Source: Squalus acanthias
Taxonomy: Eukaryota
Direction: 5' to 3'
DNA length: 64,000 bases
Assembly (NCBI GenBank): GCA_030390025.1
Contig: CM059431.1
Span: forward strand, 96,660,001 to 96,724,000
Shown one piece after another: positions 12,858 to 43,674 of this stretch (position 1 is its first letter; the number at the start of each line of letters is the position of its first letter). The position numbers were made by a program, and so were the translations under genes. The notes under the pieces are model-generated. The model was given only the letters and a program-made list of their open reading frames with translations, made no database searches and had not been told where the DNA came from.

Positions 12858-13322
12858 CTCAAGCGGGATCTTGGGTTTATGTCACGATACATGACGTGAT
12901 CCAGACTCGAGTCGTCGTTGGCTTGTTAACAGATGTGATTCCCAGTAAAAAAGTAAAAATTTTTAAAGTTTATCGTTTCCCATACTGCGGCTTTTGACAC
13001 ATTGGACCCCCTGTGGCTCCACCTCATTGTCTCAGTTGTATCTTGCTATGTCTTTGATGTGACCTGATTGCCTTTTGTCACACCTCGGCAGATAAACAGT
13101 CAGGGTGATTTAAATGTAGTCGTCTGCTTTTGTAAGTAACACATGCATTGTTCTCTATCTATATATGCTTTGGCGATTCTGTATCTCTTTACTTCACCTG
13201 AGGAAGGGGCGATCGATAGCTCCGAAAGCTTGTGATTTCAAATAAAACTGTTGGACTATAACCTGGTGTTGTGCGACTTCTCATTTTTGTCCACCCCAGT
13301 CCAACACCGGCATCTCCGCATC
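12858..13322 (+). mobile_element. Penelope-like element (family B), 3' terminal fragment, older copy
   Basis: Colinear with about 36771-37251 (RDLGFMSRYMT stop, 3' UTR, hammerhead, tail), with substitutions and indels. Confidence 0.92.
13194..13235 (+). ncRNA. Minimal hammerhead ribozyme motif (PLE family B)
   Basis: TCAC-CTGAGGA-A-GGGGC..GCTCC-GAAA-GCTT-GTGA. Confidence 0.8.
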
Positions 13323-17545: not shown

Positions 17546-20085
17546 ACAGAGGCAGAGAGAGCCAGCAAATGAACGAGCCAGAGAGAGAGAGTGAGCTAGA
17601 GGGAGAGCGAGCCAGGGCGAGAGCGAGAGGGAGAGCGCGAGTGAGCCAGAGCGAGAGCGAGAGGGAGAGCGAGCCAGAGAGAGAGGGAGAGCGAGCCAGA
17701 GAGAGAGGGAGAGCGAGCCAGAGAGCAAGAAAGCCAGAGAGAGAGAGAGAGAGAGAAAGAGCGCGAGCGAGCCCGAGAGAGAGAGAGCGAGCGAGCCAGA
17801 GAGACAGTCCGAGCGAGCCAGAGAGAGAGAGAGAGGGAGCCAGAGAGAGAGAGAGAGGGAGCCAGAGAGAGCGAGCGAGCCAGCGAGAGAGAGAGAGAGA
17901 GAGAGAGCGAGCAAGCCAGAGAGAGAGAGAGAGGGAGCCAGAGAGAGCGATCGAGCCAGCGAGAGAGAGAGAGAGAGAGAGAGCAAGCCAGAGAGAGAGA
18001 AAGAGCCAGAGAGAGAGAGTGAGAGAGAGAGAGAGAGTGCGTGAGTGAGCCAGAGAAAGAGCGAGCGAGCCAGAGGGGGCGGGAGAGAGGGGGCGAGGGA
18101 GGGCGGGCGAGAGAGGGGGAGGGGGAGAGAGGGGGGAGGGAGAGAGGGGAGGAGGGGAGAGAGGGGAGAGGGGAGAGAGGGGGAGATGGGGGAGAGAGGG
18201 GAGAGAGAGGGGAGAGAGGGGAGAGGAGGAGAGGGGGAGAAGAGGGGGAGAGAGGGGGAGCGAGGGGGAGAAGGGGAGAAGGGGGAGAGAGGGGGAGAGG
18301 GGGAGAGGGGGAGAGGGGGGAGAGGGAGGGAGCGGGAGGGGGGAGAGGGGGAGAGAGGGGGAGGGGGAGAGAGGGGAGGAGGGGGAGAGAGGGGGGAGAG
18401 GGGGAGAGAGGGGGGAAGCAGGGGAGGGAGAGAGGGGGAGGGGGAGGGGGAGAGAGGGGGGAGGGGGGAGAGAGGGGGGGAGGGGGGAGAGGGNNNNNNN
18501 NNNNNNNNNNNNNNNNNNNNNNNNNNNNNNNNNNNNNNNNNNNNNNNNNNNNNNNNNNNNNNNNNNNNNNNNNNNNNNNNNNNNNNNNNNNNNNNNNNNN
18601 NNNNNNNNNNNNNNNNNNNNNNNNNNNNNGGGCGAGAGAGAGCGAGGGCGAGAGAGTGCGAGGGCGAGGGCGAGAGAGGGCGAGGGCGAGAGCGAGAGAG
18701 GGCGAGGGCGAGGAGAGGGCGAGGGCGAGGGCGAGGGCGAGAGAGGGCGAGAGAGGGCGAGAGAGAGAGAGGGCGAGGGCGAGAGAGGGCGAGAGAGGGC
18801 GAGAGAGGGCGAGAGAGGGCGAAGGCGAGAGAGGGCGAGGGCGAGAGAGGGCGAGGGCGAGAGAGGGCGAGGGCGAGAGAGGGCGAGGGCGAGAGAGGGC
18901 GAGGGCGAGAGAGGGCGAGCGAGAGAGGGCGAGGGCGAGAGAGGGCGAGGGCGAGGGAGGGCGAGGGGAGAGAGGGCGAGGGCGAGGGCGAGAGAGGGCG
19001 AGAGAGGGCGAGAGAGGGCGAGAGAGGGCGAGAGAGGGCGAGAGAGGGCGAGAGAGGGCGAGGGCGAGAGAGGGCGAGGGCGAGAGAGGGCGAGGGCGAG
19101 AGAGGGCGAGGGCGAGAGAGGGCGAGGGCGAGAGAGGGCGAGGGCGAGAGAGGGCGAGGGCGAGAGAGGGCGAGGGCGAGAGAGGGCGAGGGCGAGAGAG
19201 GGCGAGGGCGAGAGAGGGCGAGGGCGAGAGGGGGCGAGGGCGAGAGAGGGCGAGGGAGGGCGAGGGCGAGGGAGGGCGAGGGCGAGGGAAGGCGAGGGCG
19301 AGGGAGGGCGAGGGCGAGGGAGGGCGAGGGAGGGCGAGGGCGAGGGAGGGCGAGGGAGGGCGAGGGCGGGCGAGCGAGGGCGAGCGAGGGCGAGCGAGGG
19401 CGAGAGCGAGAGAGGGCGAGGGCGAGAGAGGGCGAGGGCGAGAGAGGGCGAGGGCGAGAGAGGGCGAGGGCGAGAGAGGGCGAGGGCGAGAGAGGGCGAG
19501 GGCGAGAGAGGGCGAGAGAGGGCGAGAGAGGGCGAGAGAGGGCGAGGGCGAGAGAGGGCGAGGGCGAGAGAGGGCGAGGGAGGGCGAGAGAGGGCGAGGG
19601 AGGGCGAGAGAGGGCGAGAGAGGGCGAGCGAGAGCGAGGGCGAGAGAGTGCGAGGGCGAGGGCGAGAGAGGGCGAGAGAGGGCGAGGGCGAGAGAGGGCG
19701 AGGGCGAGAGAGGGCGAGGGCGAGAGAGGGCGAGGGCGAGAGAGGGCGAAGGCGAGAGAGGGCGAAGGCGAGAGAGGGCGAAGGCGAGAGAGGGCGAAGG
19801 CGAGGGCGATGAGGGCGAGGGCGAGAGAGGGCGAGAGAGGGCGAGAGAGGGCGAGAGAGGGCGAGAGAGGGCGAGGGCGAGAGAGGGCGAGGGCGAGAGA
19901 GGGCGAGGGCGAGAGAGGGCGAGGGCGAGAGAGGGCGAGGGCGAGAGAGGGCGAGGGCGAGAGAGGGCGAGGGCGAGAGAGGGCGAGGGCGAGAGAGGGC
20001 GAGAGAGGGCAAGGAGGGCGAGGGCGAGGGAGGGAGAGGGCGAGGGAGAGGGCGAGCGAGAGCGGGCGAGGGCGAGAGAGCGAGG

Positions 20086-20134
<49 letters not shown>

Positions 20135-20175
20135 CGAGCGAGCGAGCGAGCCGGAGAGAAATTGAGAGAGAGAAC

Positions 20176-20218
<43 letters not shown>

Positions 20219-20385
20219 AGAGACAGAGCGCGCGAGCGACCCAGAGAGAGAGCGCGCGAGCGAGCCAGAGAGAGAGCGCGCGAGCGACAGGAGAGAGAGG
20301 GGGACAGGTGAGGAGGGCGGCGGGGGCGAGAGCGAGGCGAGAGAGCGAGAGCGGGCGACAGAGAGAGAGAGCGAGGCAGCCAGAG

Positions 20386-20429
<44 letters not shown>

Positions 20430-20882
20430 ACGGGAGAGAGACAGAGCGCTCGAGCAACCCAGAGAGAGAGAGAGGGGGGGCGAGAGAGAGGGCGAGGGCG
20501 AGAGCGGGCGAGGGCGAGAGAGGGCGAGCGAGGGGGAGGGGGAGAGAGGGGTAGGGCGAGAGAGGGCGAGAGAGGGCAAGGGAAAGCGAGGGAGGGCGAG
20601 CGAGGGCGAGGGCGAGCGCGGGCGAGAGCGAGAGAGGGCGAGGGCGAGAGAGGGCGAGGGCGAGAGAGGGCGAGAGAGGGCGAGAGAGGGCGAGGGCAAG
20701 AGAGGGCGAGAGAGGGTGAGGGCGAGAGAGGGCGAGGGCGGGCGAGAGAGGGCGAGGGCAAGAGAGGGCGAGCGAGGGCGAGAGAGGGCGAGGGCGAGAG
20801 GGCACGAGGGCGAGAGGGGGCGAGGGCGAGAGGGGGCGAGGGCGAGAGAGCGAGAGCGCGAGGGCGAGAGAGGGCGAGGCAG

Positions 20883-20930
<48 letters not shown>

Positions 20931-21005
20931 CGAGCGAGCGAGCGAGCGAGCGAGAGAGAGAGAGAGAGAGAGAGTGAGCCGGAGACAGAGAGAGCGAGAG
21001 AGAAC

Positions 21006-21045
<40 letters not shown>

Positions 21046-21242
21046 CAGAGCGCGCGAGCGACCCAGAGAGAGAGCGCGCGAGCGAGCCAGAGTGAGAGAG
21101 AGGGGGCGAGAGAGAGGGGGGTGGGGTGAGAGTGAGGGGGGGGGCGAGAGGGGGGGGGCGAGAGAGAGGGTGGGCGAGAGCGGGCGAGGGCGAGAGAGGG
21201 CGGGCGAGGGCGAGAGAGGGCGAGAGAGGGCGAGAGAGGGCA
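17546..21242. repeat. Polypurine GA/GGGCGA low-complexity array containing an assembly gap
   Basis: (GA)n, GAGGGC and GAGAGAGGGC units; N run 18494-18629. Confidence 0.97.
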
Positions 21243-22541: not shown

Positions 22542-25500
22542 TAGAAAATCATAGAAGATAGGAGCAGGAGTAGGCCATTCGGCCCCTCGAGCCTGCTCCG
22601 CCATTCGATGAGATCATGGCTGATCATCCAAACTCAGTACCCTGTACCTGCCTTCTCCCCATATCCCTTGATACCTTTAGCTTTAAGAAATATATCTAAC
22701 TCATTCTTGAATATATTTAATGACTTGGCCTCAACTACCTTCTGTGGTAGAGAATTCCACCGGTTCACCACTCTCTGGGTGAAGAAATTCTTCCTCATTT
22801 CTGTCCTAAATGGCTTACCCGTTATCCTTAGATTATGACCCCTGGTTCTGGACTCTCCGACCATCGGGAACAGTCTTCTTGCATCTAGTTTGTCCAGACC
22901 TGTCAGAATTTTATATGTTTCGATGAGATCCCCTCTCATTCTTCTATACTCCAGCGAGTATAAGCCCAATCGACCCAATCTCTCCTCATATATGTCATTC
23001 CTGCCATCCCAGGTATCAGCCTTGTGAATCTTCGCTGAACTCCTTCCATGGCAAGAACATCCTTCCTCAGATAAGGCGACCAAAACTGCACACAGTACTC
23101 AAGGTGTGGTCTCACCAAGGCCCTGTACAACTGCAGCAGGACATCCCTGTTCCTATACTCAAACCCTTTCGCTATGAAGGCCAACATACCATTTGCCTTC
23201 TTCACCGCCTGCTGCACCTGCATGCTTACCTTCAGCGACTGGTGCACAAGGACACCCAGGTCTCGTTGCACTTCCCCTTCTCCCAATCTATTGCCATTCA
23301 GATAATAGTCTGCCTTTCTGTTTTTGACACCAAAGTGGGTAACCTCGCATTTATCCACGTTATATTGCATCTGCCACGCTTCTGCCCACTCACCCAACCT
23401 GTCCAAATCATCCTGGAGTTTCTCGGTATCCTCCTCGCAGCACACATGCCCACCCAGCTTTGTGTCATCTGCAAACTTGGAGATATTACATTTAGTTCCT
23501 TTATCTAGATCATTAATGTATATTGTGAATAGCTGGGGTCCAAGGACCGAACCCTGCGGTACCCCACTAGTCACTGCCTGCCACTCGGAAAAAGACCCAT
23601 TAATTCCTACTCTCTGCTTTCTGTCCGCCAACCAGTTCTCTATCCAAGTCAATACCTTGCCCCCAATCCCATGTGCCTTAACTTTACACGCTAATCTCTT
23701 ATGCGGGACCTTATCGAAAGCCTTTTGAAAGTCCAAATACACCACATCTACTGGTTCTCCCTTGTCTATTTTCCCAGTTACATCCTCAAAAAATTCCAGT
23801 AGATTAGTCAAGCACGATTTACCTTTTGTAAATCCATGCTGACTTTGTCCGATCCTGTCACTGTTTTTCAAGTGCTCAGCTATTACATCCTTTATAATGG
23901 ACTCTAGCATTTTCCCCACTACCGCTGTCAGGCTTCCCAGTCTATAATTCCCGCTTTCTCTCGACCACCCTTTTTGAATAGTGGGGTAACATTAGCTACC
24001 CTCCAATCCATGGGTACAGTTCCAGATTCCATTGAATGTTGGAAGATGATCAGCAATGCATCTACTATTTCTAGGGCCACTTCCTTAAGTACCCTAGGAT
24101 GCAGATTATCAGGCCCTGGGGATTTATCGGCCTTCAATCCCGTCAATTTCCCTAACACCATTTCCCTGCAAATACTGATTTCTTTCAGTTCCTCCCTTTC
24201 ATCAGACCCTATGTTCTCCAACATCTCTGGGAGGTTATTTGTGTCCTCCTTTGTGAAGACAGAACCAAAAAGTGCATTTAATTGGTCTGCCATTTCTTTG
24301 TTCCCCATTATAACTTCCCCCGCTTCTGACTGCAAGGGACCTACACTTGATTTCACTAATCTTTTTCACTTCACATATCTATAAAAGCTCTTACAGTCAG
24401 TTTTATGTTCCCAGCAAGCTTACTTTCATATTCTATTTTCCCCTTCTTAATTAATCCCTTTGTCCTCCTTTGTTGAATCCTAAACTGCTCCCAATCCTCA
24501 GGGTTACCGCTTTTCTGGCCAATTTATATGCCCTCTCCTTGGATCTTATGCTATCCCTAATTTCCCTTGTTAGCCACGGTTGAGTCACCCTTTTTGTTTT
24601 ATTCTACTGTGATGAACAAATTCTGTAGTTCATCCATGCAGTCTTTGAATGTTTGCCATTGCCTATCCACCATCAACCCCTTGAGTGACATTCCCCAATC
24701 AATCCTACCCAATTCACGCCTCATACCATCGTAGTTTCCTTTATTTAAATTCAGGACCCTAGTCTCTGATTCAACTACTTCACTCTCCATCCTAATGAAG
24801 AATTCTATCATATTATGATCACTCTGACCCAAGGGGCCTCATACAACAAGATTGCTAATTAATCCTTTCTTGTTACATAATACCCAGTCTAAGATGGCCT
24901 GATCTCTGGTTGGTTCCTCGACATATTGTTCCAGAAAACCATTCCGTAAACATTCTAGGAATTCCTCCTCCACAGTATTTTTACTAATTTGGTTAGCCCA
25001 ATCTATATGTAAATTAAAGTCACCCATGATGACTGCTGTGCCCTTACTGCATGCTTCTCTAATTTCCCTTTTAATGCCATCCCCAACCTCCGTATTACTG
25101 TTTGGAGGTCTATATACCACTCCCACTAACATTTTCTGCCCCTTGTTATTTCTCAGTTCTACCCATACAGATTCCGCATCATCAGAGCTACTATCCTTCC
25201 TTTCAATTGTGTTAATCCCCTCTTTAACCAGCAATGCTACCCCACCTCCCTTTCTTTTTTGCCTATCTTTCCTAAATATTGAATACCCCTGGATGTTGAG
25301 TTCCCAGCCTTGGCCACCCTGGAGCCATGTTTCTGTAATCCCAATCAAATCGTATTCATTTACCTCTATTTGCGCAGCTAATTCATCCACCTTGTTCCGA
25401 ATGCTCCTTGCATTAAGACACAAAGCCTTCAGGCTTGTTTATTTAATGCTCTCAGACCTATATGAATTATTATTTACTGTGACCATGTTTGATTTAAACC

Positions 25501-29267: not shown

Positions 29268-29432
29268 GGGAGTGCAGCGAAGGTTCACTAGACTGGTTCC
29301 TGGGATGGGGGGATTGTCCTATGAGGAGAGATTGAGTAGACTCGGCCTATATTCCTTAGAGTTTAGAAGAATAAGAGGTGATCTAATTGAAACATAAAAT
29401 TCTTAAGGGGCTTGACAGGGTTAATGCTGGGA
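29268..29432 (+). mobile_element. CR1 fragment A, left part (continues at 39283)
   Basis: GVQRRFTRLVPG...LDRVNAG; the expected next residues MFPLAGESRTRGH appear at 39283. Confidence 0.8.
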
Positions 29433-32400
29433 GCTGAATATCCAAGGATATTGGATATTTAGGAAGGACAGGCGAAAAGGAAAAGGAGGTGGGGTGGCCT
29501 TGTTAGTAAAGGATGAAATCAGGGCAATAGTGAGAAAGGATATTGGCTCAGAAAATCAAGATGTAGAATCAGTCTGGGTGGAGCTAAGAAGCACCAAGGG
29601 GCAGAAAACATTGGTGGGAGTTGTCTATAGGCCTCCAAACAGTATTGGTAATGTAGGGGATGGCATCAAACAGGAAATTAGAGATGCATGTAACAAGGGT
29701 ACTACAGTAATCATGGGTGACTTTAATCTACATATAGACTGGCCAAACCAAATTAGCAATAATACTGTGGAGGATGAATTCCTGGAGTGTGTACGAGATG
29801 GTTTTTTAGAGCAGTACGTTGAGGAGCCAACTAGGAAACAGGCTATCCTAGACTGGGTATTGTGCAATGAGAAGGGGTTAATTAATAATCTTGTTGTGCA
29901 GGGTCCTTCAGGGAAGAGTGACCATAACATGATAGAATTCTTCATTAAAATGGAAAGTGAAGAAGTCCAATCCGAAACTAGGGTCCTAAATCTAAAGAAA
30001 GGAAACTACGATGGTATGAGGAGTGAGTTGGCTATGATAGATTGGGGAGCTTCATTAAAAGGTATGACGGTGGATAGACAATGGCTAACATTTAAGGAAC
30101 GAATGCATGAATTGCAACAGTTATACATTCCTTTCTGGCGCAAAAACACAAAAGGAAAAGCGGCCCAACTATGGCTAACAAAAGAAATTAAGGATAGTAT
30201 TAGATCCAAAGAGGAGTCATATAAAGTTGCTAGAAAAAGTAGCAAGCCTGAGGATTGGGAGCAGTTTAGAGTTCAGCAAAACAGGACCAAGAGATTGATT
30301 AAGAGGGGAAAAATAGAATATGAGAGTAAACTTGCAAGGAACATAAAAGCGGATTGTAAAAGCTTCTACAAGTATGTAAAAAGAAAAAGATTAGCGAAGA
30401 CAAATGTAGGTCCCTTACAGTCAAAAATGGGAGAATTCATAATGGGGAAGAAGGAAATGGCAGAGCAATTAAACAAATACTTTGGTTCTGTCTTCACGGA
30501 AGAGGACACAAATAACTTCCCAGAAATGCTAGGGAACCAAGGGTCTAGTGAGAATGAGGAATTAAAGGAAATTAGTATTAGTAAAAAAAAGTGCTGGAGA
30601 AATTAATGGGACTGAAAGCTGATAAATACCCAGGGCCTGATAATCTGCATCCCAGAATACTAAAAGAGGTAGCCATGGAAATAGTGGATGCATTGGTTGT
30701 CATCTTCCAAAATTCTATAGATTATGGAACTGTTCCTGCAGATTGGAGGGTGGCAAATGTAACCCCATTATTTAAAAAAGGAGGGAGAAAGAAAACAGGG
30801 AACTACAGACCGGTTAGCCTAACATCAGTACAGGAAACTCTTTATTAACCAGCACCGACGGGACCGGCGTGGTGCCGGTTAATCAAAAAGTCCGGATAAC
30901 GGAGAGTTATATCTCCCAACGTACGAGAGCCCCGTACACACTGACATGCGCCTGCATTCGGAGCTCCGTCTCCCCGGGGACCGCCAGCTGACCATCTGTC
31001 GTGTCCGCTGCCGACCCGGGCTGCACATTCCCCTCCCAATCTACACACTCCGATACAAGGCAAACACCTCGGGGTTTTTTTAAAAGTTATTTTTAAAGGA
31101 GAGATGAAGGAAAACCCCGGTTACCTACTCAAGAATTTTGCCAGTTAAGAGAGATTTCCGGTTATTTGGGTGCCGGTTAAAAGAGAGTTTCCTGTAGTAG
31201 GGAAAATGCTAGAGTCTATTATAAAGGATGTGATAACAGCACACTTGGAGAATATCAACGGGATTAGACAAAGTCAACATAGATTTATGAAAGGGAAATC
31301 ATGTTTGACAAACTTACTGGAGTTTTTTGAGGATGTAACTGGTAGAATAGATAAGGGAAAACCAGTGGATGTTGTGTATTTGGATTTTCAGAAGTCATTT
31401 GATAAAGTCCCACATAAGAGGTTAGTGTGCAAAATTAAAGCACATGGAATTGGGGGTAATATACTGGCATGGATTGAAAATTGGTTAACAGACAGGAAAC
31501 AGAGAGCAGGAATAAATGGGTCTTTTTCGGGGTAGCAGGCGGTGACTAGTGGGGTACCGCAGGGATCAGTGCTTGGGCCCCAGCTATTCACAATATATAT
31601 CAATGATTTGGATGAGGGAACCAAATGTAATATTTCCAAGTTTGTTGACGACACGAAACTAGGTGGGATTGTGAGTTGTGAGGAGGATGCAAAGAGGCTT
31701 CAAGGCGATTTAGACAAGTTGAGTGAGTGGGCAAATACATGGCAGATGCAGTATAATGTGGATAAATGTGGAGTTATCCACTTCGGTAGGAAAAACAGAA
31801 AGGTAGAGTATTATTTAAATGGTGATAGATTGGGAAATGTTGATGTACAAAGGGACCTGGTGTCCTTGTACACCAGTCACTGAAAGCAAACATGCAGGTG
31901 CAGCAAGCAGTTAGGAAGGCAAATGGTATGTTGGCCTTCATTGCAAGAGGATTTGAGTACAGGAGCAAGGATGTCTTACTACAGTTGTACAGGGCCTTGG
32001 TGAGACCACACCTGGAGTACTATGTGCAGTTTTGGTCTCCTTACCTAAGGAAAGATATACTTGCCATAGAGGGAGTGCAGCGAAGGTTCACCAGACTGAT
32101 TCCTGGGATGGCAGGACTGTCGTATGAGGAGAGATTGGGTCGACTAGGCCTGTATTCACTAGCGTTTAGAAGAATGAGAGGGGAGCTCATTGAAAGGTAT
32201 AAAATTCTGACAGGGCTAGACAGACTGGATGCAGGGAGGATGTTTCCCCTGGCTGGGGGGTCTAGAGCGAGGGGTCACAGTCTCAGGGTACGGGGTAGGA
32301 CATTTAGGACTGAGATGAAGAGAAATTCCTTCACTCAGAGGGTGGTGAACCTGTGGAATTCTCTACCACAGAAGGCTGTGGAGGCCAAGTCACTGAATAT

Positions 32401-32476: not shown

Positions 32477-33596
32477 GGAAGGATTTAATCTAGTTTGTCA
32501 GGGGGCTGGGAACCTAAGTGTGGGCCCAGAACAGAGAGAAACAAAGCTGGAACTGAAAGTTAGAAAAGTAGTCAGCAAAACTAGTAGGGAGCAGAAACAA
32601 AGGCCAACAGTAAAGAGGGTCAAAGTGCAGATAAATATTAAACAGGCAAAGTTGAAGGCACTTTATCTAAATGCACGTAGCAGTCGCAACAAGGTGGATG
32701 AATTAATGGCACAAATAGAAGTAAATGGGTATGATGTAATTGCCATTACAGAGACATGGTTGCAGGGTAACCAAAGCTAGGAACTGAATGTTCCAGGGTA
32801 CTCAACATTTAGGAAGTACAGACAAAAAGGAAAAGGAGGTGGCGTAGCGCTGTTAATAAGGGATGAGATCGGTACGGTAGAGTTAAAAGATCTTGGCTTG
32901 GCAGATCGTGATGTAGAACTGGAATCAGTTTGGGTGGAGCTAAGAAACAGCAAAGGGCGGAAAACATTGGTGGGAGTTGTGTATAGGCCACCAAACAGTA
33001 GTGGTAATGTAGGGCACAGTATCAATCAAAAAATTAGAAGTGCATGTAACAAGGGCAATACGGTAATCATGGGGGACTTTAATCTACATATTGACTGGGC
33101 AAATCAAATTACCACTAATGGTGTGGAGGACGAATTCTTGGAAGCATGCGAGATGGTTTCCTGGATCAGTATGTGGAGGAACCAACCAGGGAACAGGCTA
33201 TTCTGGATCTGGTACTGTGTAATGAGAAAGGGCTAATCAATAATCTTGTGGTAAAGGGGCCTTTAGGAACAAGTGACCATAATATGATTGAATTTTATAT
33301 TAAGTTTGAGAGTGATGTAGTCCAATCTGAAACTAAGGTCTTCAATCTAAAAGGAGGAAACTACAAGGGTATGAGGGATAAGTTGGCCATGGTAGATTGG
33401 GAGACTACACTAAAAGGTATGAAGGTGGACATACAATGGCTAACATTCAAGGAAATAATGCATAATTTGCAACAAACATATATTCCTCTAGGGCATAAAA
33501 ACCCAAAAGGAAAAGTGATCCAACCATGGCTAACAAAATAAATTAAAGTGAGAAGTCGCACAACACCAGGTTATAGTCCAACAGTTTTATTTGAAA

Positions 33597-33634
33597 TCAC
33601 AAGCTTTCGGAGCGGCTGCTCCTTCGTCAGGTGA
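33597..33634 (-). ncRNA. Hammerhead ribozyme motif, left arm
   Basis: Reverse complement of 37130-37167. Confidence 0.88.
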
Positions 33635-33951
33635 AGTAAAGGAATACAAATCGACAAAGCATATATAGATAGAGAACAATGCATGTGTAACGTACAATGG
33701 CAGACGACTACATTTAATCCTCCTGACTGTTTATCTGCCGAGGTGTGACAAAAGGCAATCAGGTCAGCCAGGAAGGCACCACATCAAAGACATAGCAAGA
33801 TACAACTGAGACAATGAGGTGGGGTTACAGGGGGTCTAATGTGTCAAAAGCTGCAGTCTGTATGGAAAACGATAAACTTTAAAATTTTTACTTTTTTTTT
33901 CTGCAAATCACATCTGTGAACAAGCCAACGACGACTCGAGTCTGGATGACT

Positions 33952-35322
33952 CTACGTCATGTATCGTGACATGAACCCAAGATCCCGGTTGAGGCCGTCC
34001 TCATGAGTGCGGAACTTGGCTATCAGTTTCTGCTCGATGATTTTACGTTGTCGTGTGTCTCTAAGGCCGCCTTGGAGAACGCTTACCCGCAGATCCGAGG
34101 CTGAATGTCCTTGACTGCTGAAGTGTTCCCCGACTGGGAGGTAACAATCCTGCCTGGCGATTGTTGCGCGGTGTCCATTCATACGTTGTCGCAGTGTCTG
34201 CATGGTCTCGCCGATGTACCATGCTCCGGGGCATCCTTTCCTGCAACGTATGAGGTAGACAACGTTGGCCGAGTCACATGAGTATGTACCATGTACCTGG
34301 TGGGTAGTGTCCTCACGTGTGATGATGGTATCTGTGTTGATGATCTGGCATGTCTTGCAGAGGTTGCCGTGGCAGGGTTGTGTGGTGTCGTGGTCGCTGT
34401 TATCCTGAAAGCTGGGTAATTTGCTGCGAACGATGGTACTTCTGAGGTTTGGCGGCTGTTTGAAGGCAAGTAGTGGAGATGTGGGGATGGCCTTAGCGAG
34501 GTGTTCGTCGTCATCGATGACATGTTGAAGGCTGCGAAGAACATGGCGTAGTTTCTCCGCTCCGGGGAAGTACTGGACGACGTAGGGTACCCTGTTGGTT
34601 GTGTCCCGTGTTTGCCTTCTGAGGAGGTCTATGCGATTTTTCGCTGTGGCCCGTCGGAACTGTCGATCGATGAGTCGAGCGTCATATCCCGTTCTTACGA
34701 GGGCGTTTTTCAGCGTCCGTGGGTGTCCATCGCGTTCCTCCTCGTCTGAGCAGATCCTGTGTATTCGCAGGGCTTGTCCATAGGGGATGGCTTCTTTAAC
34801 GTGGTTAGGGTGGAAGCTGGAGAAGTGGAGCATCGTGAGGTTGTCCGTGGGCTTGCGGTAGAGTGAAGTGCTGAGGTGTCCGTCTTTGATGGAGATTCGT
34901 GTGTCCAGGAATGAAACCGATTCTGAGGAGTAGTCCATGGTGAGTTTGATGGTGGGATGGAACTTGTTGATGTTATCGTGTAGTCTTTTCAGTGATCCTT
35001 CGCCGTGGGTCCAAAGGAAGAAAATGTCGTCGATGTATCTGGTGTACAGCGTTGGCTGGAGGTCCTGTGCAGCGAAGAAGTCTTGCTCGAACTTGTGCAT
35101 GAAGATGTTGGCGTATTGGGGTGCGAATTTGGTCCCCATGGCTGTTCCGTGTGTTTGGGTAAAAAAATGGTTGTCGAAGGTGAAGACATTGCGGTCAAGG
35201 ATGAAGCGGATGAGTTGTAGGATGGCGTCTGGAGATTGGCTGTTGTTGGTGTTGAGTACTGAGGCTGTCGCAGCGATGCCGTCATCGTGGGGGATACTGG
35301 TGTAGAGTGCCGATACGTCCAT
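33952..35322 (-). CDS. Penelope RT + GIY-YIG endonuclease, 5'-truncated, left arm
   Basis: 456 aa identical to the plus-arm ORF: MDVSALYTSI, GTAMG, RYIDD, VVYLIRC..WYIGET. Confidence 0.9.
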   Translation of the reverse strand: MDVSALYTSIPHDDGIAATASVLNTNNSQSPDAILQLIRFILDRNVFTFDNHFFTQTHGTAMGTKFAPQYANIFMHKFEQDFFAAQDLQPTLYTRYIDDIFFLWTHGEGSLKRLHDNINKFHPTIKLTMDYSSESVSFLDTRISIKDGHLSTSLYRKPTDNLTMLHFSSFHPNHVKEAIPYGQALRIHRICSDEEERDGHPRTLKNALVRTGYDARLIDRQFRRATAKNRIDLLRRQTRDTTNRVPYVVQYFPGAEKLRHVLRSLQHVIDDDEHLAKAIPTSPLLAFKQPPNLRSTIVRSKLPSFQDNSDHDTTQPCHGNLCKTCQIINTDTIITREDTTHQVHGTYSCDSANVVYLIRCRKGCPGAWYIGETMQTLRQRMNGHRATIARQDCYLPVGEHFSSQGHSASDLRVSVLQGGLRDTRQRKIIEQKLIAKFRTHEDGLNRDLGFMSRYMT

Positions 35323-35363
35323 CGTGGCGAGGAGTGTTCGTGGTTCAACTGGTCCGTGGGTGC

Positions 35364-36812
35364 TTCTGCCGCGACACCACAGACTTCTTACAGAAACTCA
35401 GCACCCACGGACCAGTTGAACCACGAACACTCCTCGCCACGATGGACGTATCGGCACTCTACACCAGTATCCCCCACGATGACGGCATCGCTGCGACAGC
35501 CTCAGTACTCAACACCAACAACAGCCAATCTCCAGACGCCATCCTACAACTCATCCGCTTCATCCTTGACCGCAATGTCTTCACCTTCGACAACCATTTT
35601 TTTACCCAAACACACGGAACAGCCATGGGGACCAAATTCGCACCCCAATACGCCAACATCTTCATGCACAAGTTCGAGCAAGACTTCTTCGCTGCACAGG
35701 ACCTCCAGCCAACGCTGTACACCAGATACATCGACGACATTTTCTTCCTTTGGACCCACGGCGAAGGATCACTGAAAAGACTACACGATAACATCAACAA
35801 GTTCCATCCCACCATCAAACTCACCATGGACTACTCCTCAGAATCGGTTTCATTCCTGGACACACGAATCTCCATCAAAGACGGACACCTCAGCACTTCA
35901 CTCTACCGCAAGCCCACGGACAACCTCACGATGCTCCACTTCTCCAGCTTCCACCCTAACCACGTTAAAGAAGCCATCCCCTATGGACAAGCCCTGCGAA
36001 TACACAGGATCTGCTCAGACGAGGAGGAACGCGATGGACACCCACGGACGCTGAAAAACGCCCTCGTAAGAACGGGATATGACGCTCGACTCATCGATCG
36101 ACAGTTCCGACGGGCCACAGCGAAAAATCGCATAGACCTCCTCAGAAGGCAAACACGGGACACAACCAACAGGGTACCCTACGTCGTCCAGTACTTCCCC
36201 GGAGCGGAGAAACTACGCCATGTTCTTCGCAGCCTTCAACATGTCATCGATGACGACGAACACCTCGCTAAGGCCATCCCCACATCTCCACTACTTGCCT
36301 TCAAACAGCCGCCAAACCTCAGAAGTACCATCGTTCGCAGCAAATTACCCAGCTTTCAGGATAACAGCGACCACGACACCACACAACCCTGCCACGGCAA
36401 CCTCTGCAAGACATGCCAGATCATCAACACAGATACCATCATCACACGTGAGGACACTACCCACCAGGTACATGGTACATACTCATGTGACTCGGCCAAC
36501 GTTGTCTACCTCATACGTTGCAGGAAAGGATGCCCCGGAGCATGGTACATCGGCGAGACCATGCAGACACTGCGACAACGTATGAATGGACACCGCGCAA
36601 CAATCGCCAGGCAGGATTGTTACCTCCCAGTCGGGGAACACTTCAGCAGTCAAGGACATTCAGCCTCGGATCTGCGGGTAAGCGTTCTCCAAGGCGGCCT
36701 TAGAGACACACGACAACGTAAAATCATCGAGCAGAAACTGATAGCCAAGTTCCGCACTCATGAGGACGGCCTCAACCGGGATCTTGGGTTCATGTCACGA
36801 TACATGACGTAG
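35364..36812 (+). CDS. Penelope RT + Cys-rich linker + GIY-YIG endonuclease, 5'-truncated, no stops
   Basis: FCRDTTDFL, DVSALYTSIP, GTAMG, YIDD, CHGNLCKTC linker (Neptune-like), YLIRC/YIGET, VGEHF, GLN. Confidence 0.92.
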   Translation, partial: FCRDTTDFLQKLSTHGPVEPRTLLATMDVSALYTSIPHDDGIAATASVLNTNNSQSPDAILQLIRFILDRNVFTFDNHFFTQTHGTAMGTKFAPQYANIFMHKFEQDFFAAQDLQPTLYTRYIDDIFFLWTHGEGSLKRLHDNINKFHPTIKLTMDYSSESVSFLDTRISIKDGHLSTSLYRKPTDNLTMLHFSSFHPNHVKEAIPYGQALRIHRICSDEEERDGHPRTLKNALVRTGYDARLIDRQFRRATAKNRIDLLRRQTRDTTNRVPYVVQYFPGAEKLRHVLRSLQHVIDDDEHLAKAIPTSPLLAFKQPPNLRSTIVRSKLPSFQDNSDHDTTQPCHGNLCKTCQIINTDTIITREDTTHQVHGTYSCDSANVVYLIRCRKGCPGAWYIGETMQTLRQRMNGHRATIARQDCYLPVGEHFSSQGHSASDLRVSVLQGGLRDTRQRKIIEQKLIAKFRTHEDGLNRDLGFMSRYMT

Positions 36813-37129
36813 AGTCATCCAGACTCGAGTCGTCGTTGGCTTGTTCACAGATGTGATTTGCAGAAAAAAAAAGTAAAAATTTTAAAGTTTATCGTTTTCC
36901 ATACAGACTGCAGCTTTTGACACATTAGACCCCCTGTAACCCCACCTCATTGTCTCAGTTGTATCTTGCTATGTCTTTGATGTGGTGCCTTCCTGGCTGA
37001 CCTGATTGCCTTTTGTCACACCTCGGCAGATAAACAGTCAGGAGGATTAAATGTAGTCGTCTGCCATTGTACGTTACACATGCATTGTTCTCTATCTATA
37101 TATGCTTTGTCGATTTGTATTCCTTTACT

Positions 37130-37167
37130 TCACCTGACGAAGGAGCAGCCGCTCCGAAAGCTTGTGA
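37130..37167 (+). ncRNA. Hammerhead ribozyme motif, right arm
   Basis: TCAC-CTGACGA-A-GGAGCagccGCTCC-GAAA-GCTT-GTGA; AATAAA follows at 37173. Confidence 0.88.
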
Positions 37168-39282
37168 TTTCAAATAAAACTGTTGGACTATAACCTGGTG
37201 TTGTGCGACTTCTCACTTTTGTCCACCTCAGTCCAACACCGGCATCTCCGCAAAATAAATTAAAGCTAGTATTAAGTCAAAGGAGGAAGCTTATAACGTT
37301 GCCAGAAAAAGCGGTCAGCCTGAAGATTGGGATCTTTTCAGAAATCAGCAAAGGGGGACCAAGAAATTGATAAAGAAAGGGAAAATGGAATAAGAGCACA
37401 ATCTAGCAAAAAATATAAAAACGGATTGTAAAAGCTTCGAAAGGTATGTGAAAAGGAAAAGACTGGCGAAGGTAAATGTGGATCCTTTACAGTCAGAGAT
37501 GGGAGAATTTATAATGGGGAATGAGGAAATGGCAGAGAAATTAAATAAATACTTTGCTTCTGTTTTCACGGAGGAAGACACAAATAACCTCCCAGAAATA
37601 TGAGAAAAGCAAGGGTGGGGTGAGAATGAGGAACTTAAAGAAATTATTATTTGTAAAAAAACAGTACTAGCAAAATTAATGGGACTATAGGTCGATAAAT
37701 CCCAAGGACCGGATGAACTACATCCTAGGGTTTTGAAGGAGGTGGCCATTGGGATAGTGGACGCATTGGTTGTCATCTTCCAAAATTCTATAGATTCTGG
37801 AATGGTTCCTGCAGATTGGAGGATAGCAAATGTAACCCCGCTATTTAAGAAAGGAGGGAGAGAGAAAACGGGGAACTACAGACCTGTAAGCCTCACATCA
37901 GTAGTCGGGAAAATGCTGGAATCTATTATAAAGGATGCAATAACTGGGCACTTAGAAACTAATAGTAAGATTGGGCAGAGTCGACATGGATTTATGAAAG
38001 GGAAATCCTGTTTGACAAACCTATTGGAGTTCTTTGAGGATGTAACGAGTGGAGTCGACAAAGGGGAACCGGTAGATGTGGTGTATTTGGATTTTCAGAA
38101 GGCCTTCGATAAGGTCCCACATAAGAGGTTGGTGAACAAAATTAGGGCACATGGAATTGGGGGTAATATACTAGCATAGATTGAGAATTGGTTAACAGAC
38201 AGAAAACAAAGAGTAGGGATAAACGGGCCTTTTTCAGGATGGCAGGCTGTGACTAGTGGGGTACCGCAAGGATCGGTGCTTGGGCCCCAGCTATTCACAA
38301 TCTATATCAATGATTTGGATGAGAGTATTAAATGTAACATTTCCAAATTTGCTGATGATACAAAGCTAGGTGGCAGTGTCAGTTGTGAAGAGGATGTGAA
38401 GAGGCTTCAAGGGGATCTCGACAGGCTCAGTGAGTGGGCGAGAACATGGTAGATGGAATATAATGTGGATAAATGTGAAGTTATCCACTTTGGTAGAAAA
38501 AACAGAAAGGCAGAGTATTTCCTAAATGGTGAAAGATTGGGGAATGCAGATGCTCAAAGGGACCTGGGTGTCCTTGTACATGAGTCACTGAAAGTGAATG
38601 TGCAGGTGCAGCAAGCCATTAGGAAGGCAAATGGTATGCTGGCCTTCATTACAAGAGGATTTGAGTACAGGAGTAAAGAAGTCTTACTCCAATTATATAG
38701 GGCCTTGGTGAGACCACACCTGGAGTACTGTGTACAATTTTGGTCTCCTTACCTAAGGAAGGATATACTTGCCATAGAGGGAGTGCAACGAAGGTTCACA
38801 AGATTGATTCCTGGGATGGCGGGACTGTCGTATGAGAAGAGATTGAGTAAACTAGGCCTGTATTCTCTTGAATTCAGAAGAATGAGAGGGGATCTCATTG
38901 AAGCATACAAAATTATTACAGGGCTTGATAGGGTGGATGCTGGGAGAATGTTTCCCTTGGCTGGGGAGTTTAGAACCAGGGGCCACAGCCTCAGGATAAA
39001 GGGTAGGCCATTCAGGACCGAGATGAGAAAAAATTTCTTCACACAGAGGGTGGTGAATCTTTGGAATTCTCTACCCCAGAGGGCTGTGGAGGCTCAGTCA
39101 TTGGGTATATTCAAAACAGAAGTCGATAAATTTCTGACAGGTAAAGGCATCAAGGGATATGACGATAGGGCTGGTGAATGGAGTTGAGGCAGAAGATCAG
39201 CCATGATCATATTGAATGGCGGAGCAGGCTTGAAGGGCCGAATGGCCTATTCCTGCTCCTATTTTTCTATGTTTCTGTTTCT

Positions 39283-41069: not shown

Positions 41070-43674
41070 TAACATAAGAACATAAGACGTAGGAGCAGTA
41101 GGTCGTCATTTGGCCCCTCGAGCCTGCTCCGCCATTCAATAAGATCATGGCTGATCTGATCTTGGCCTCAACTCCACTTCCCTGCCCGCTCCCCATAACC
41201 CTTGACTCCCTTATCATTCAAAAATCTGTCTATCTCCACCTTAAATATATTCAATGACCCAGCCTCCACAGCTATCTGGGGAAGAGAATTCCACAGATTC
41301 ACGACCCTCAGAGAAGAAATTCCTCATTTCCAATTTAAAAGGGTTTCCCCTTATTCTGAAATTGTGCCCCCTAGTTCTGGATTCCCCCACGAGGGGAAAC
41401 ATCCTCTCTGCATCCACCCTGTCAAGTCCCTTCAGAATCTTATATGTTTCAATAAGATCCCCTCTCATTCTTCTAAACTCCAATGAGTATAGGCCCAACC
41501 TGCTCAACCTTTCTTCATAAGACAACCCCTTCATCTCCGGAATCAACCTCGTGAACCTTCTCTGAACTGCCTCCAATGCAAGTATATCCTTCCTTAAATA
41601 AGGAGACCAAAACTGTACGCAGTACTCCAGGTGTGGTCTCACCAACGCCCTGTACAGTTGTAATAGGACTTCCCTACTTGCATACTCCATTCCCTTTGCA
41701 ATAAAGGCCAACATTCCATTTGCCTTCCTAATTGCTTGCTGTACCTGCATGCTAACTTTTTGTGATTCATGTACGAGGACCCCCAGATCTCTGTACCTCA
41801 TCATTTTGTAATCTCTCCCCATTTAAATAATAATTTGCTTTTTATTTTTCCTACCAAAGTGGATAACCTCACATTTTCCCACATTAAACTCCATCTGCCA
41901 GATTTTTGCCCACTCACTTAGCCTATCTATATCCCTTTGCAGATTCTTTGCATCCTCTACACAATTTGCTTTCTCACTTATCTTTGTATCATCAGCAAAT
42001 TTGGCTACATTACAGTCCCTTCATCCAAGTCATAAATATAGATTGTAAATAATTGAGGCCCCAGCACTGATCCCTGCGGCACCCCACTAGTTACCGTTTG
42101 CCAACCTGAAAATGACCCATTTATCCCGACTCTCTGTTTTCTGTTAGTTAGCCAATTCTCTATCCATGCTAATATATTACCCCCAACCCCGTGAGCTCTT
42201 ATCTTGTGTAGTAACCTTTTATGTGGCATCTTATCGAATGCCTTCTGGAAATCCAAATACACAACATTTACTGGTTCCCCTTTATCCACCCTGCTCGTTA
42301 CATCCTCAAAGAACTCCAGCAAATTTGTCAAACATGATTTCCCTTTCATAAAACCATGCTGACTCTGCTTGACTATATTATGATTTTCTAAATGTCCTGC
42401 TATCACTTCCTTAATGATGGACTCCAGCATTTTCCCAATGACAGATGTTAGGCTAACTGGTCGATAGTTGCCTGCTTTCGGTCGCCCTCCTTTCTTAAAT
42501 AGAGGCGTTACATTTGCGGTTTTCCAGTCCGCTGGGACCGCTCCACAATCCAGGGAATTTTGGTAGATTACAACCAATGCATCCACTATCTCTGCAGCCA
42601 CCTCTTTTAAGACCCTAGGATGCAGGCCATCGGGTCCAGGGGACTTGTCCACCTTTAGTCCCATTAGTTTGCCTAGTACTTTCTCTCTAGTGATAGTGAT
42701 TGTTTAAGTTCCCGCCCCCCACCCCAATAGCCCCTTGATCATACATTATTGGAATGCTTTTAGTGTCTTCGACCGTGAAGACCGATACAAAATATTTGTT
42801 CAAAGTCTTCGCCATTTCCCTGTTTCCCATTATTAATTCCCCAGACTCATCCTCTGGGGGACAAACGTTTACTTTAGCTACTCTGTTCCTTTTTATTTAC
42901 CTGTAGAAGCTCTTACTGTCTGTTTTTATATTGCTTGTTAACTTACTCTCATAAGCTATCTTCTCTCTATCATTTTTTTAGTCATCCTTTGCTGGTTTTT
43001 AAAAAATCCCAATCCTCTGGCCTTTCACTATCCTTCGCAACATTGTATGCTTTTGTTTTCAATTTGATACCATCCTTTACTTCCTTAGTTAGCCACGGAT
43101 GGTTCATCCTTCTCTTAAGAGTCTTTCTTTCTCACTGGAATATATCTTTGCTGAGAGTTATGAAATATCTCCTTAAATGTTTGCCACTGCTTTTCTACAG
43201 TCGTACCCTGTAATATATTTTCCCAGTCCACTTTAACCAAGTCTGCCTTCATACCTTTGTAATTACCTTTGTTTAAGTTCAGGACACTAGTTTGAGACCT
43301 AGCTTTCTCACCCTCAAACTGAATTTGAAATTCTACCATGCTATGATCACTCTTCCCAAGAGGATCCTTCACTTCGAGATCATTAATTAATCCAGCCTCG
43401 TTACACATTACCAGATCTAAAATAGTCTTCTCCCTGGTTGGTTCCACAACATATTGTTCCAAGAAACCATCCCGTATACACTCTAAGAACTCTTCCTCAA
43501 GCCGACCTTTGCCAATTTGCTTTGTCCAATCAATATGAAGATTAAAATCTCCGATGATTATATCCGTACCTTTCTTACAAGCCTCTATTATTTCTTGATT
43601 TATTCTCTGTCCTACAGTGTGGCTACTGTTTGGGGGCCTGGAGACCACTCCCACCAGTGACTTTTTACCCTTAT

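What the first reader, a model, noticed from the sequence alone, without database searches (positions are those of the whole stretch)
33534..37265. 3.7-kb Penelope palindrome: a fold-back retro-insertion with a ribozyme at each end
Seen: two 1820-bp arms (33545-35364, 35400-37219) are reverse complements, with no differences that I could find and identical 456-aa translations. A 35-bp spacer separates them, a roughly 31-bp tail exists only on the right, and a 15-bp TSD bounds the whole unit, so it looks like one insertion event. Known: Penelope-like elements often show inverted 5'-truncated forms and short 3' tails. Inferred: the junction CCGTGGGT-GCT-TCTGCCGCGAC fits the cDNA 3' end snapping back on a 3-nt GCT microhomology and self-priming second-strand synthesis, which then joined the target at a 4-nt AAAG microhomology. 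Read-through on either strand would give a 1.8-kb hairpin RNA, a possible endo-siRNA or ADAR substrate. The DNA could also extrude a cruciform.
Basis: partly seen in the sequence, partly recalled or inferred. Interest (0 to 1): 0.8.

Follow-up and report, generated by a model that had tools for sequence, protein, structure and literature searches.

The report
Head-to-head Penelope-like retrotransposon insertion
A dead, half-length Penelope-like retrotransposon sits in an old LINE as two perfectly mirrored 1.8-kb copies made in one jump; this layout is already described for these elements, but the copy is fresh enough to show its joints base by base.

Summary
Arms 33545-35364 and 35400-37219 are 1820 nt and 100% reverse-complementary, with a 35-nt spacer, a 31-nt tail on the right only, and a 15-bp duplication on both sides. 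Paralogous LINE copies in the window carry that 15-bp site once, so the 3.7-kb unit is one insertion and not an assembly fold-back.

Each arm is the 3' half of a Penelope-like element: part of the RT, a CX4CXXC linker, a GIY-YIG endonuclease and a minimal hammerhead motif. Rfam matches nothing.

Contigs from two samples show that the family reads ...A-GCT-TCTGCCGC upstream of the truncation point.

An inverted 5'-truncated copy with a 30-40-bp tail at one end is the published hallmark of these elements. I slightly favour priming from both nicked target strands at the two known RT start sites, with the two cDNA 3' ends annealing by AGC/GCT (0.45). This one locus cannot separate them.

This is a new member of a known kind, of moderate interest.

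The parts
33534..33548 (.). Left copy of the 15-bp target-site duplication, CAAAATAAATTAAAG. The last 4 nt (AAAG) are shared with the left arm.
   Evidence: family D5, 100%. The site is single in paralogous LINE copies.
33545..35364 (-). Left arm. This is the 5'-truncated PLE copy in antisense orientation. It lacks the 31-nt tail, and its outer end lies at the tail boundary.
   Evidence: exact reverse complement of 35400-37219.
33601..33630 (-). Minimal hammerhead motif of the left arm
   Evidence: pattern: 3 matches in the window, 0 expected by chance.
35362..35364 (.). GCT, a 3-nt microhomology at the centre joint. It belongs both to the end of the left arm and to the family sequence just upstream of the right copy's truncation point.
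   Evidence: table 7: loose ends lie 'before 35362' in X1 (7 contigs), X2 (7) and X3 (9, agreement 0.99). Read by eye, the frame gives ...LKPIVQGTPS-FCRD, matching homologues.
35365..35399 (+). 35-nt spacer, the sense continuation of the right copy (codes ..FCRDTTDFLQKL)
35365..37250 (+). Right copy, a 5'-truncated PLE in sense orientation, 1886 nt including the tail
35367..36812 (+). ORF remnant of 481 aa plus stop. It holds the C-terminal part of the RT, a CX4CXXC linker and a GIY-YIG endonuclease with CCHH. About 400 N-terminal residues of the full protein are missing.
   Evidence: RVT_1 E=1.3e-8. Aligns to the C-terminal half of 861-906-aa homologues, the best being P0002 (881 aa, 65% identity). 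The last 116 aa match P0017 residues 758-862 at E=8e-23, over its Pfam GIY-YIG hit at 770-854.
37134..37167 (+). Minimal hammerhead motif: CUGACGA, extra A, 5-bp helix II with loop AGCC, GAAA, palindromic AGCU, U17. The predicted cut is after 37163. Helix I is UCAC/GUGA.
   Evidence: Features compared with PMC4209133. No Rfam match.
37220..37250 (+). 31-nt tail, present only at this end of the unit. It is the canonical 3' end of the family.
   Evidence: the copy at 12858-13318 ends with the same tail.
37251..37265 (.). Right copy of the 15-bp target-site duplication
32781..33233 (+). Host LINE: AP-endonuclease part of a decayed ORF2, upstream of the insertion
   Evidence: Exo_endo_phos_2 E=7.4e-8.
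37691..38176 (+). Host LINE: reverse-transcriptase part, downstream of the insertion
   Evidence: RVT_1 E=2.5e-14.
12858..13318 (+). Independent simple 5'-truncated copy of the same PLE family (87% identity). It has the hammerhead motif and the tail.

Best explanation
One retrotransposition event of a Neptune/Nematis-type Penelope-like element (PLE) landed in an AT-rich site of a decayed LINE and left two head-to-head 5'-truncated copies.

Proposed pathway. Steps 1, 2 and 4 are inferred. For step 3 the sequence overlap is shown and the annealing is inferred.

1. The element's GIY-YIG endonuclease nicked both target strands about 15 bp apart. This left two 3' overhangs.
2. Each 3'-OH primed reverse transcription.
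   - The bottom strand (...TTTTG-3') primed at the distal RT start site, so the right copy carries the 31-nt tail.
   - The top strand (...AAAG-3') primed on CUUU at the proximal, tail-less start site. This produced the left copy.
3. The two antisense cDNAs reached nearly the same point, 1889 and 1820 nt. Their 3' ends (...AGC-3' and ...GCT-3') annealed over 3 nt.
4. Each cDNA was then extended along the other. This produced a perfect palindrome with a 35-nt unique centre, and fill-in of the overhangs produced the duplication.

The product is dead on arrival. Each arm lacks about 400 N-terminal residues of the protein.
For: SHOWN IN THE SEQUENCE
- Exact 1820-nt arms, a 35-nt spacer that continues the right copy in frame, and a tail on the right only.
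- A 15-bp duplication whose site is single in paralogous LINE copies at 2664-2678 and 30179-30193.
- The tail is the family's normal 3' end.
- The left arm ends exactly 31 nt short of that end, at CTTT, which is complementary to the target's AAAG-3'.
- The GCT overlap at the centre is confirmed by family contigs from two samples (table 7).
- At least six letters of this copy differ from almost all family contig depth: 35424, 36043, 36314, 36719, 36860, 36864 (table 3). Both arms share them, so the arms descend from one template.

FROM PAPERS
- A purified PLE protein cleaves and extends both DNA strands. It starts RT at two adjacent internal sites separated by the tail, and it prefers AT-rich DNA (PMC11167929, Main text read in full).
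- In that paper the main start lies 111-118 nt into the ORF and the hammerhead cut lies at +26, so the start is 85-92 nt after the cut. Here the tailed end lies 87 nt after the predicted cut (37163 to 37250).
- In Adineta vaga the inverted pLTR is 37 bp shorter than the full pLTRs and the tail is 31 bp (PMC3846280, passages). The outer end of the inverted copy being a tail-less end may therefore be general.

INFERENCE
- By my own calculation, chance gives a >=3-nt overlap at about 5% of random joints and a >=4-nt overlap at about 1.6%.
Against: - Two independently primed cDNAs have no obvious reason to stop within 38 nt of each other. That near-symmetry is what an intramolecular snap-back predicts.
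- The tail sits on the longer, spacer-bearing copy. Snap-back requires this arrangement. Dual priming gives it only about half the time.
- The in-vitro data come from a Poseidon-clade element, not this clade.
- I could not show that tail-less ends at 37219 recur in this family. The window holds only one other copy, which is tailed, and the loose-end table was cut (1935 rows not shown).
- No read or contig was shown to bridge the centre or both flanks.
Confidence: 0.45

Rival explanations
1. The first reader's model, cDNA snap-back.
- Only the bottom strand primed RT, at the tailed start site.
- After 1889 nt the cDNA's 3' end (...AGC-3') folded back onto GCT 35 nt upstream in the same strand. 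It then copied itself outward.
- This second strand stopped 31 nt short of the cDNA's 5' end and paired by CTTT/AAAG with the nicked top strand.
- The top strand then copied the unfolded hairpin.
For:
- The 35-nt distance between donor and acceptor is what an intramolecular hairpin gives naturally.
- The spacer and the tail are on the same copy, as this model requires.
- Arms identical over 1820 nt, including copy-private letters, fit copying of one strand.
- Self-priming has been proposed for PLE inverted repeats, although on an antisense RNA template (PMC3846280).
- Hairpin self-priming of first-strand cDNA by reverse transcriptases is classical (recalled, no call).
Against: - The model needs an extra assumption to explain why second-strand synthesis stopped exactly at the tail boundary. 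That boundary is the known alternative RT start site. Possible reasons are bound protein or endonuclease resolution.
- Snap-back has not been shown for a PLE enzyme in the papers I read.
- Canonical PLE units have a short inverted pLTR next to a full-length copy. These are less easily explained by a snap-back that stops after about 180 nt.
- The microhomology does not discriminate between this model and the dual-priming model.
Confidence: 0.38
2. Two separate events produced the structure. Either a second PLE inserted next to the first, or a DNA-level inverted duplication (replication template switch) followed a simple insertion.
For: Inverted duplications and nested insertions are common in repeat-rich DNA (general knowledge). 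The family is very abundant and young: 11110 of the 32437 contigs laid from run X1 were 99% or more alike.
Against: - Only one duplication bounds the whole unit, and there is no inner one.
- The left arm abuts the duplicated site directly, at the tail boundary.
- The arms are identical over 1820 nt and share copy-private letters.
- The truncation points differ by only 38 nt (35-nt spacer plus the 3-nt overlap).
- A DNA-level duplication would be expected to carry flank or tail sequence with it.
Confidence: 0.04
3. Assembly artefact. A fold-back or chimeric long read, or a mis-join between two element copies, created a palindrome that is not in the genome.
For: - Perfect palindromes are a known artefact class (general knowledge).
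- PLE inverted structures are reported to disturb assemblies (PMC8557442).
- No contig or read was shown to bridge the centre or both flanks.
- The window holds an assembly gap at 18494-18629, about 15 kb away.
Against: - A fold-back read mirrors its flanks. Here the two flanks are the consecutive halves of one LINE copy, and they share a 15-bp duplication whose site is single in paralogues.
- The unit is asymmetric in just the way PLE insertions are: a 31-nt tail at one end and a unique 35-nt centre.
- The centre and left joints both show microhomology.
Confidence: 0.03

Closest known systems
Canonical head-to-head PLE insertion units (Penelope, Poseidon, Neptune, A. vaga Pen families), as described in PMC3846280 and PMC8557442
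   Same: An inverted 5'-truncated copy lies next to the sense copy, with the 3' ends facing outward. A 30-40-bp tail (31 bp in A. vaga, 31 nt here) sits at one end only. One target-site duplication of variable length surrounds the whole unit. Hammerhead motifs lie in the terminal regions on opposite strands. The target is AT-rich.
   Different: There is no full-length ORF and no direct pLTR pair. Both copies are truncated inside the RT at almost the same point, which gives long (1.8-kb), equal, still-identical arms around a 35-nt centre. The published typical unit is a short inverted pLTR beside a longer unit.
PAc (Poseidon of Anolis carolinensis) in-vitro target-primed reverse transcription, PMC11167929
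   Same: Two 3' ends separated by the tail match its two RT start sites. The tailed end lies 87 nt after the predicted hammerhead cut, against 85-92 nt computed from the paper's text. The target is AT-rich and contains ATT. Use of both target strands would give this architecture.
   Different: This element carries the CX4CXXC linker, which the literature says Penelope/Poseidon lack, so it belongs to another clade. Nothing was tested biochemically here. The paper reports no homology between primer and start site, whereas 4-nt and 2-nt overlaps are possible here.
L1 twin priming (5' inversions of human LINE-1); recalled, no paper read here
   Same: Both nicked target strands prime cDNA in a single event. 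The two cDNAs are joined by short microhomology.
   Different: In L1 the second primer anneals internally, so the two segments are different parts of one RNA. That gives an inversion without a duplication. Here both copies cover the same 1.8 kb, which gives a palindrome.
Hairpin self-priming (snap-back) of first-strand cDNA by reverse transcriptases; recalled
   Same: A short terminal overlap a few tens of nt behind the 3' end, followed by copying of the cDNA itself, would give exactly this centre.
   Different: It is known as an in-vitro property of other RTs. It was not shown for PLE enzymes in the papers read. It does not by itself explain the stop at the tail boundary.
Minimal hammerhead ribozymes of metazoan PLEs (min-HHR), PMC4209133
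   Same: [quoted passage not shown]
   Different: There is no match to any Rfam hammerhead model, even at E<=10. The predicted fold is no better than shuffles at a convincing level (z -1.66). Activity is untested.

Membership tests
Penelope-like elements (EN+ PLE) | Reverse transcriptase domain | tested here: met
   Pfam RVT_1 E=1.3e-8, 35.3 bits against a cutoff of 29.6. All five longer proteins chosen from the list align to it, and Pfam scans here found RVT_1 in the three that were scanned.
Penelope-like elements (EN+ PLE) | [quoted passage not shown] | tested here: met
   A direct Pfam scan of the window protein found no GIY-YIG hit, even at E<=10. However, the last 116 aa match P0017 residues 758-862 at E=8e-23 and P0012 at 8e-17, over their Pfam GIY-YIG hits (770-854 and 806-885). 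Invariant columns in the 6-sequence alignment include Y381, C385, C389, Y394, G396, R405, H409, E455, N470.
Penelope-like elements (EN+ PLE) | [quoted passage not shown] | tested here: met
   The 31 nt at 37220-37250 occur on the right only. The same tail ends an independent copy.
Penelope-like elements (EN+ PLE) | Inverted 5'-truncated copy adjacent to the sense copy (head-to-head) | tested here: met
Penelope-like elements (EN+ PLE) | Direct pseudo-LTRs formed by a partial tandem | tested here: not met
   No direct repeat longer than 24 nt was found in 32500-38300. This is expected for copies truncated inside the ORF, so it does not argue against membership.
Penelope-like elements (EN+ PLE) | Target-site duplication around the whole unit | tested here: met
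   A 15-bp repeat. The site is single in two paralogous LINE copies.
Neptune/Nematis-type PLE (as against Penelope/Poseidon) | [quoted passage not shown] | tested here: met
   PCHGNLCKTC gives C342-x4-C347-xx-C350, invariant in all six aligned sequences. The criterion is taken from PMC8557442 passages. No phylogeny was made, so the clade is not resolved further.
Minimal hammerhead of PLEs (min-HHR) | Conserved core nucleotides, extra nucleotide 9/10.1, G10.1-C11.1, palindromic 15.2-16.2, short helix I | tested here: met
   Read directly from 37130-37167. The pattern occurs 3 times in the window, only in the 3 PLE copies, with 0 expected by chance. The criteria come from PMC4209133.
Rfam hammerhead families | Score at or above the family's gathering threshold | tested here: not met
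   0 matches in the whole window at gathering scores. 0 matches in 33400-37400 at E<=10.
Minimal hammerhead of PLEs (min-HHR) | Self-cleavage (as a dimer or with protein help) | not testable with these tools
   This needs an in-vitro cleavage assay.

The most novel reading that the evidence does not exclude
The locus is an undecayed in-vivo product of concerted two-strand target-primed reverse transcription by a dimeric PLE particle. One subunit started at the tailed site on the bottom strand and the other at the tail-less site on the top strand. Both made cDNAs of almost equal length (1889 and 1820 nt). The event was closed by pairing of the two cDNA 3' ends over 3 nt. If so, the equal arms record synchronous synthesis. 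This very abundant, young family would then allow the origin of PLE inverted repeats, described in the literature as still undefined, to be settled by counting joints genome-wide.
Probability: 0.4. Interest if true: 0.55.

Novelty: new member of a known kind. Interest (0 to 1): 0.35.

Why it matters
How Penelope-like elements make their tandem and inverted insertion units and the one-sided tail is still called undefined in the literature (PMC8557442). The first in-vitro system appeared only in 2024 (PMC11167929).

This copy has no decay at all: arms 1820/1820 identical and duplications 15/15 identical. All three joints can therefore be read at single-base resolution.
- The outer ends sit at the two positions expected for the two RT start sites.
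- The centre shows a verified 3-nt overlap.

One locus cannot decide between dual-strand priming and snap-back. The family is very abundant and young in this genome: 22,070-32,906 contigs were laid per DNA run, about a third of them at >=99% identity. The same measurements over all inverted pairs could decide it.

For annotation, the case is a reminder that a perfect palindrome bounded by a duplication in a PLE-rich genome is biology, not an assembly error.

Tried and rejected
- Rfam scan of the whole window at gathering scores and of 33400-37400 at E<=10: no match. The hammerhead claim therefore rests on a hand-read motif and a pattern count.
- Folding of the motif region (z -1.66) and of the 3' terminal 89 nt including the tail (z -0.77): neither is convincingly better than shuffles. 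I make no claim for a stem-loop at the tail.
- Own-genome search: no genome is held for this window. The family-wide table of spacers, tails and microhomologies could not be made.
- Scans for other copies: an exact 22-mer in metagenome contigs gave 0 hits. An 18-mer with one N gave 58 metagenome and 6 viral loci. BLAST of the right copy against all 64 loci gave only the 21-nt seed in one of them, so they are chance matches.
- Read laying on 35200-37500 with X1, X2, X3, X10: all four runs are Logan contigs. No listed piece spans the stretch, and no bridging of 35364|35365 or of the flank joints was shown (the tables were cut). It therefore gives no verdict on the locus itself, on insertion polymorphism or on transcription. 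I did not use depths to estimate the share of tailed ends, because the tool warns against that.
- Direct Pfam scan for GIY-YIG on the window protein: nothing, even at E<=10. This was resolved through homologues.
- Earlier findings of this scan: none for this genome or sequence. One note on another genome was not used as evidence.
- Literature search for PLE together with snap-back, twin priming, fold-back, head-to-head or self-priming: of the 15 papers listed out of 125, only PMC3846280 concerns PLEs. It proposes self-priming on an antisense template, not cDNA snap-back.
- The hairpin-RNA, siRNA, ADAR and cruciform ideas could not be examined with contig-only data.
- The supplements of PMC11167929 (Figs S1-S2, with the exact start sites) were not read.

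Full report
WHAT IS THERE

The repeat finder reports one inverted pair, 33545-35364 and 35400-37219. It is 1820 nt long, 100% complementary, with 35 nt between the arms. It also reports a perfect 15-bp direct repeat, CAAAATAAATTAAAG, at 33534-33548 and 37251-37265. A script confirmed that the arms are exact reverse complements.

The 35-nt spacer is not foreign sequence. It continues the reading frame of the right arm (..FCRDTTDFLQKL-STHGPVEPR..). The right copy therefore runs 35365-37250 (1886 nt) and the left copy is 1820 nt. The 31 nt at 37220-37250 lie only on the right.

A second, independent fragment of the same family at 12858-13318 (87% identical) is a plain 5'-truncated copy, and it ends with the same 31 nt. 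The 'tail' is thus the family's ordinary 3' end, and the left arm stops exactly 31 nt short of it.

ONE INSERTION, NOT AN ARTEFACT

The flanks belong to a decayed non-LTR LINE on the + strand. Its AP-endonuclease lies at 32781-33233 and its reverse transcriptase at 37691-38176. I compared the two flanks separately with the rest of the window. Other copies of this LINE have them contiguous, and both copies of the 15-bp repeat map onto a single site, at 2664-2678 and at 30179-30193.

That is an empty-site proof by paralogy. The whole 3.7-kb unit was inserted at once and duplicated 15 bp of target.

A fold-back read or a mis-join would mirror the flanks or join unrelated ones. It would not produce a duplication, a unique 35-nt centre and a one-sided 31-nt tail. 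I put the artefact at about 3%. No read or contig was shown to span the joints, so this rests on structure.

WHAT THE ARMS ARE

The 481-aa ORF remnant hits Pfam RVT_1 at E=1.3e-8. A search restricted to proteins of 843-2405 residues returned 156 relatives at E<=0.001. Five of them, 861-906 aa long, were aligned, and the remnant lines up with their C-terminal half. The best is P0002 (881 aa, 65% identity). About 400 N-terminal residues are missing, so each arm is dead on arrival.

Pfam did not call GIY-YIG on the window protein itself, even at E<=10. The last 116 aa nevertheless match P0017 residues 758-862 at E=8e-23, over that protein's own Pfam GIY-YIG hit at 770-854. They also match P0012 at 8e-17. 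[quoted passage not shown]

A C-x4-C-xx-C motif precedes the endonuclease. According to passages of PMC8557442, this linker marks Neptune and Nematis and is absent from Penelope/Poseidon. 'Penelope-like element of the Neptune/Nematis type' is therefore the accurate name. I made no tree.

THE RIBOZYME

Rfam finds nothing, at gathering scores over the window or at E<=10 over 33400-37400. Read by hand, 37130-37167 has all the features that PMC4209133 lists for the minimal hammerheads of metazoan PLEs (passages and sections 5 and 11):
- the core CUGACGA;
- one extra nucleotide;
- a 5-bp helix II closed by G-C;
- GAAA;
- a palindromic AGCU in place of helix III;
- U17;
- a 4-bp helix I.

A pattern for this core occurs three times in the window, only in the three PLE copies, with none expected by chance. 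The fold is not clearly better than shuffles (z -1.66). The motif is therefore present on opposite strands, 56 nt inside each arm end. Its activity is untested. The same paper already notes paired minimal hammerheads on opposite strands.

The sequencing-run search found 20 holders. I laid 35200-37500 on contigs of three DNA runs of one organism (two samples) and one possible RNA run.

The family is very abundant. Between 22,070 and 32,906 contigs were laid per DNA run, and 11,110 of the 32,437 in X1 were at >=99% identity.

Family contigs that cover the right copy stop matching at 35362, not at 35365. The loose end before 35362 reads ...CCCATCGTACAGGGAACCCCCA in 7, 7 and 9 contigs of X1, X2 and X3 (agreement 0.99 in X3). 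The family sequence is therefore ...CCCCA-GCT-TCTGCCGC. Read by eye, this translates to ..LKPIVQGTPS-FCRD.., which matches the homologues' ..PSFCRD...

The three bases GCT at 35362-35364 thus belong both to the end of the left arm and to the element upstream of the right copy's truncation point.

The same table shows LINE contigs running uninterrupted through the site, with a loose end before 37251 in 13 contigs of X3 and 2 of X10. This agrees with the empty-site reading.

At several positions (35424, 36043, 36314, 36719, 36860, 36864) nearly all contig depth carries a letter other than this copy's. Both arms share these private letters, so the arms come from one template.

WHAT IS ALREADY KNOWN

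PMC8557442 (passages) states three things about PLE insertions:
- They often have an inverted 5'-truncated copy at the 5' end.
- A 30-40-bp tail is often present at only one end.
- These structures upset assemblies and stem from 'still undefined' features of transposition.

PMC3846280 (passages) describes a 31-bp tail, inverted pLTRs 37 bp shorter than the direct ones, and TSDs of 8-10 bp. It also proposes self-priming to explain the head-to-head repeats.

PMC11167929 (Main text read in full; supplements not read) shows the following for a purified PLE protein:
- It cleaves and extends both target strands.
- It prefers AT-rich DNA with an ATT motif.
- It starts reverse transcription at two adjacent internal sites whose spacing is the tail.

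The architecture found here is therefore the textbook one. What is unusual is only that both copies are truncated at nearly the same point and are still identical.

MECHANISM

Two pathways fit every base.

(B) Dual-strand priming.
- Staggered nicks leave two 3' overhangs.
- The bottom strand primes at the tailed start site.
- The top strand (...AAAG-3') primes on CUUU at the tail-less start site.
- The two antisense cDNAs (1889 and 1820 nt) pair by their 3' ends (AGC/GCT).
- Each is completed on the other.

- Only the bottom strand primes.
- The cDNA folds on GCT 35 nt back and copies itself.
- The new strand stops 31 nt short and pairs by CTTT/AAAG with the nicked top strand.

Evidence favouring B:
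- The left end lies exactly at the position of the alternative RT start site.
- The tailed end lies 87 nt after the predicted hammerhead cut, against 85-92 nt computed from the numbers in PMC11167929.
- Both-strand extension has been shown in vitro.
- Tail-less outer ends of inverted copies are also seen in rotifers.

Evidence favouring A:
- The donor and acceptor of the centre joint lie only 35 nt apart.
- The tail sits on the longer copy.

By my own calculation, chance overlaps of >=3 and >=4 nt occur at about 5% and 1.6% of random joints. Both joints therefore look annealing-mediated, but this holds under either model.

I give B 0.45 and A 0.38. Two separate events get 0.04 and an artefact 0.03.

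WHAT WAS NOT TESTABLE

- Transcription of the locus, hairpin RNA, small RNAs, editing and cruciform extrusion could not be tested.
- All runs were contigs, which cannot be assigned to one copy of a family this abundant.
- Perfect identity of the arms and of the duplications points to a recent event, or to conversion between the arms. I cannot date it without knowing the organism's substitution rate.

VERDICT

The single-event PLE insertion and both microhomologies hold, but snap-back is one of two equally fitting pathways. The layout itself is an already described hallmark of these elements.

This is a new member of a known kind. Interest is moderate (0.35). Its main value is as a clean exemplar, and because this genome's young, abundant family could settle how PLE inverted repeats form.

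Noticed in passing
window 14463-21241 (gap 18494-18629): There is about 7 kb of GC-rich minisatellite arrays: 20/27/47-nt CACAG/GGCCCC units at 14463-16520, GA-rich units at 17598-18493, and a 16-nt GGGCGAGAGAGGGCGA unit of about 162 copies at 18630-21234. A 136-N assembly gap interrupts them.
   Followed up: partly
window 12858-13318: This is a second, older fragment of the same PLE family (87% identity). It is a plain 5'-truncated copy with the hammerhead motif and the tail. Its helix II has one A-to-G change that keeps pairing as G-U, and its loop is longer. I saw no obvious target-site duplication by eye.
   Followed up: partly
window 1767-3583, 29423-31543, 23573-25447 (-), 42099-43659 (-), 9811-10776 (-), 55204-55691 (-): At least six further copies of the host LINE family lie in the window, at 71-94% identity to the flanks. 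The window is largely LINE debris.
   Followed up: partly
window 37216/37251 (runs X1, X2): One contig in each of X1 and X2 (the same sample), depth 12.4, shorter side 23 nt, joins the element at 37216 directly to 37251, skipping the tail. This could be another tail-less insertion of the family at the same site of a paralogous LINE. It is unexplained (table 5).
   Followed up: no
window 37251 (run X10): Two contigs of a different sample carry 24 nt identical to this locus's left flank directly before 37251, which is the uninterrupted LINE site. They could be the empty allele of this locus or a close LINE paralogue. I could not tell which (table 7).
   Followed up: no
window 37125-37201: Summed contig depth over the last ~130 nt of the element (hammerhead to pre-tail) is 3-5 times that of the body in all three DNA runs. 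This hints at many very short 5'-truncated copies, or at a non-autonomous element sharing this end. The tool warns that contig depth is a poor measure (table 2).
   Followed up: no
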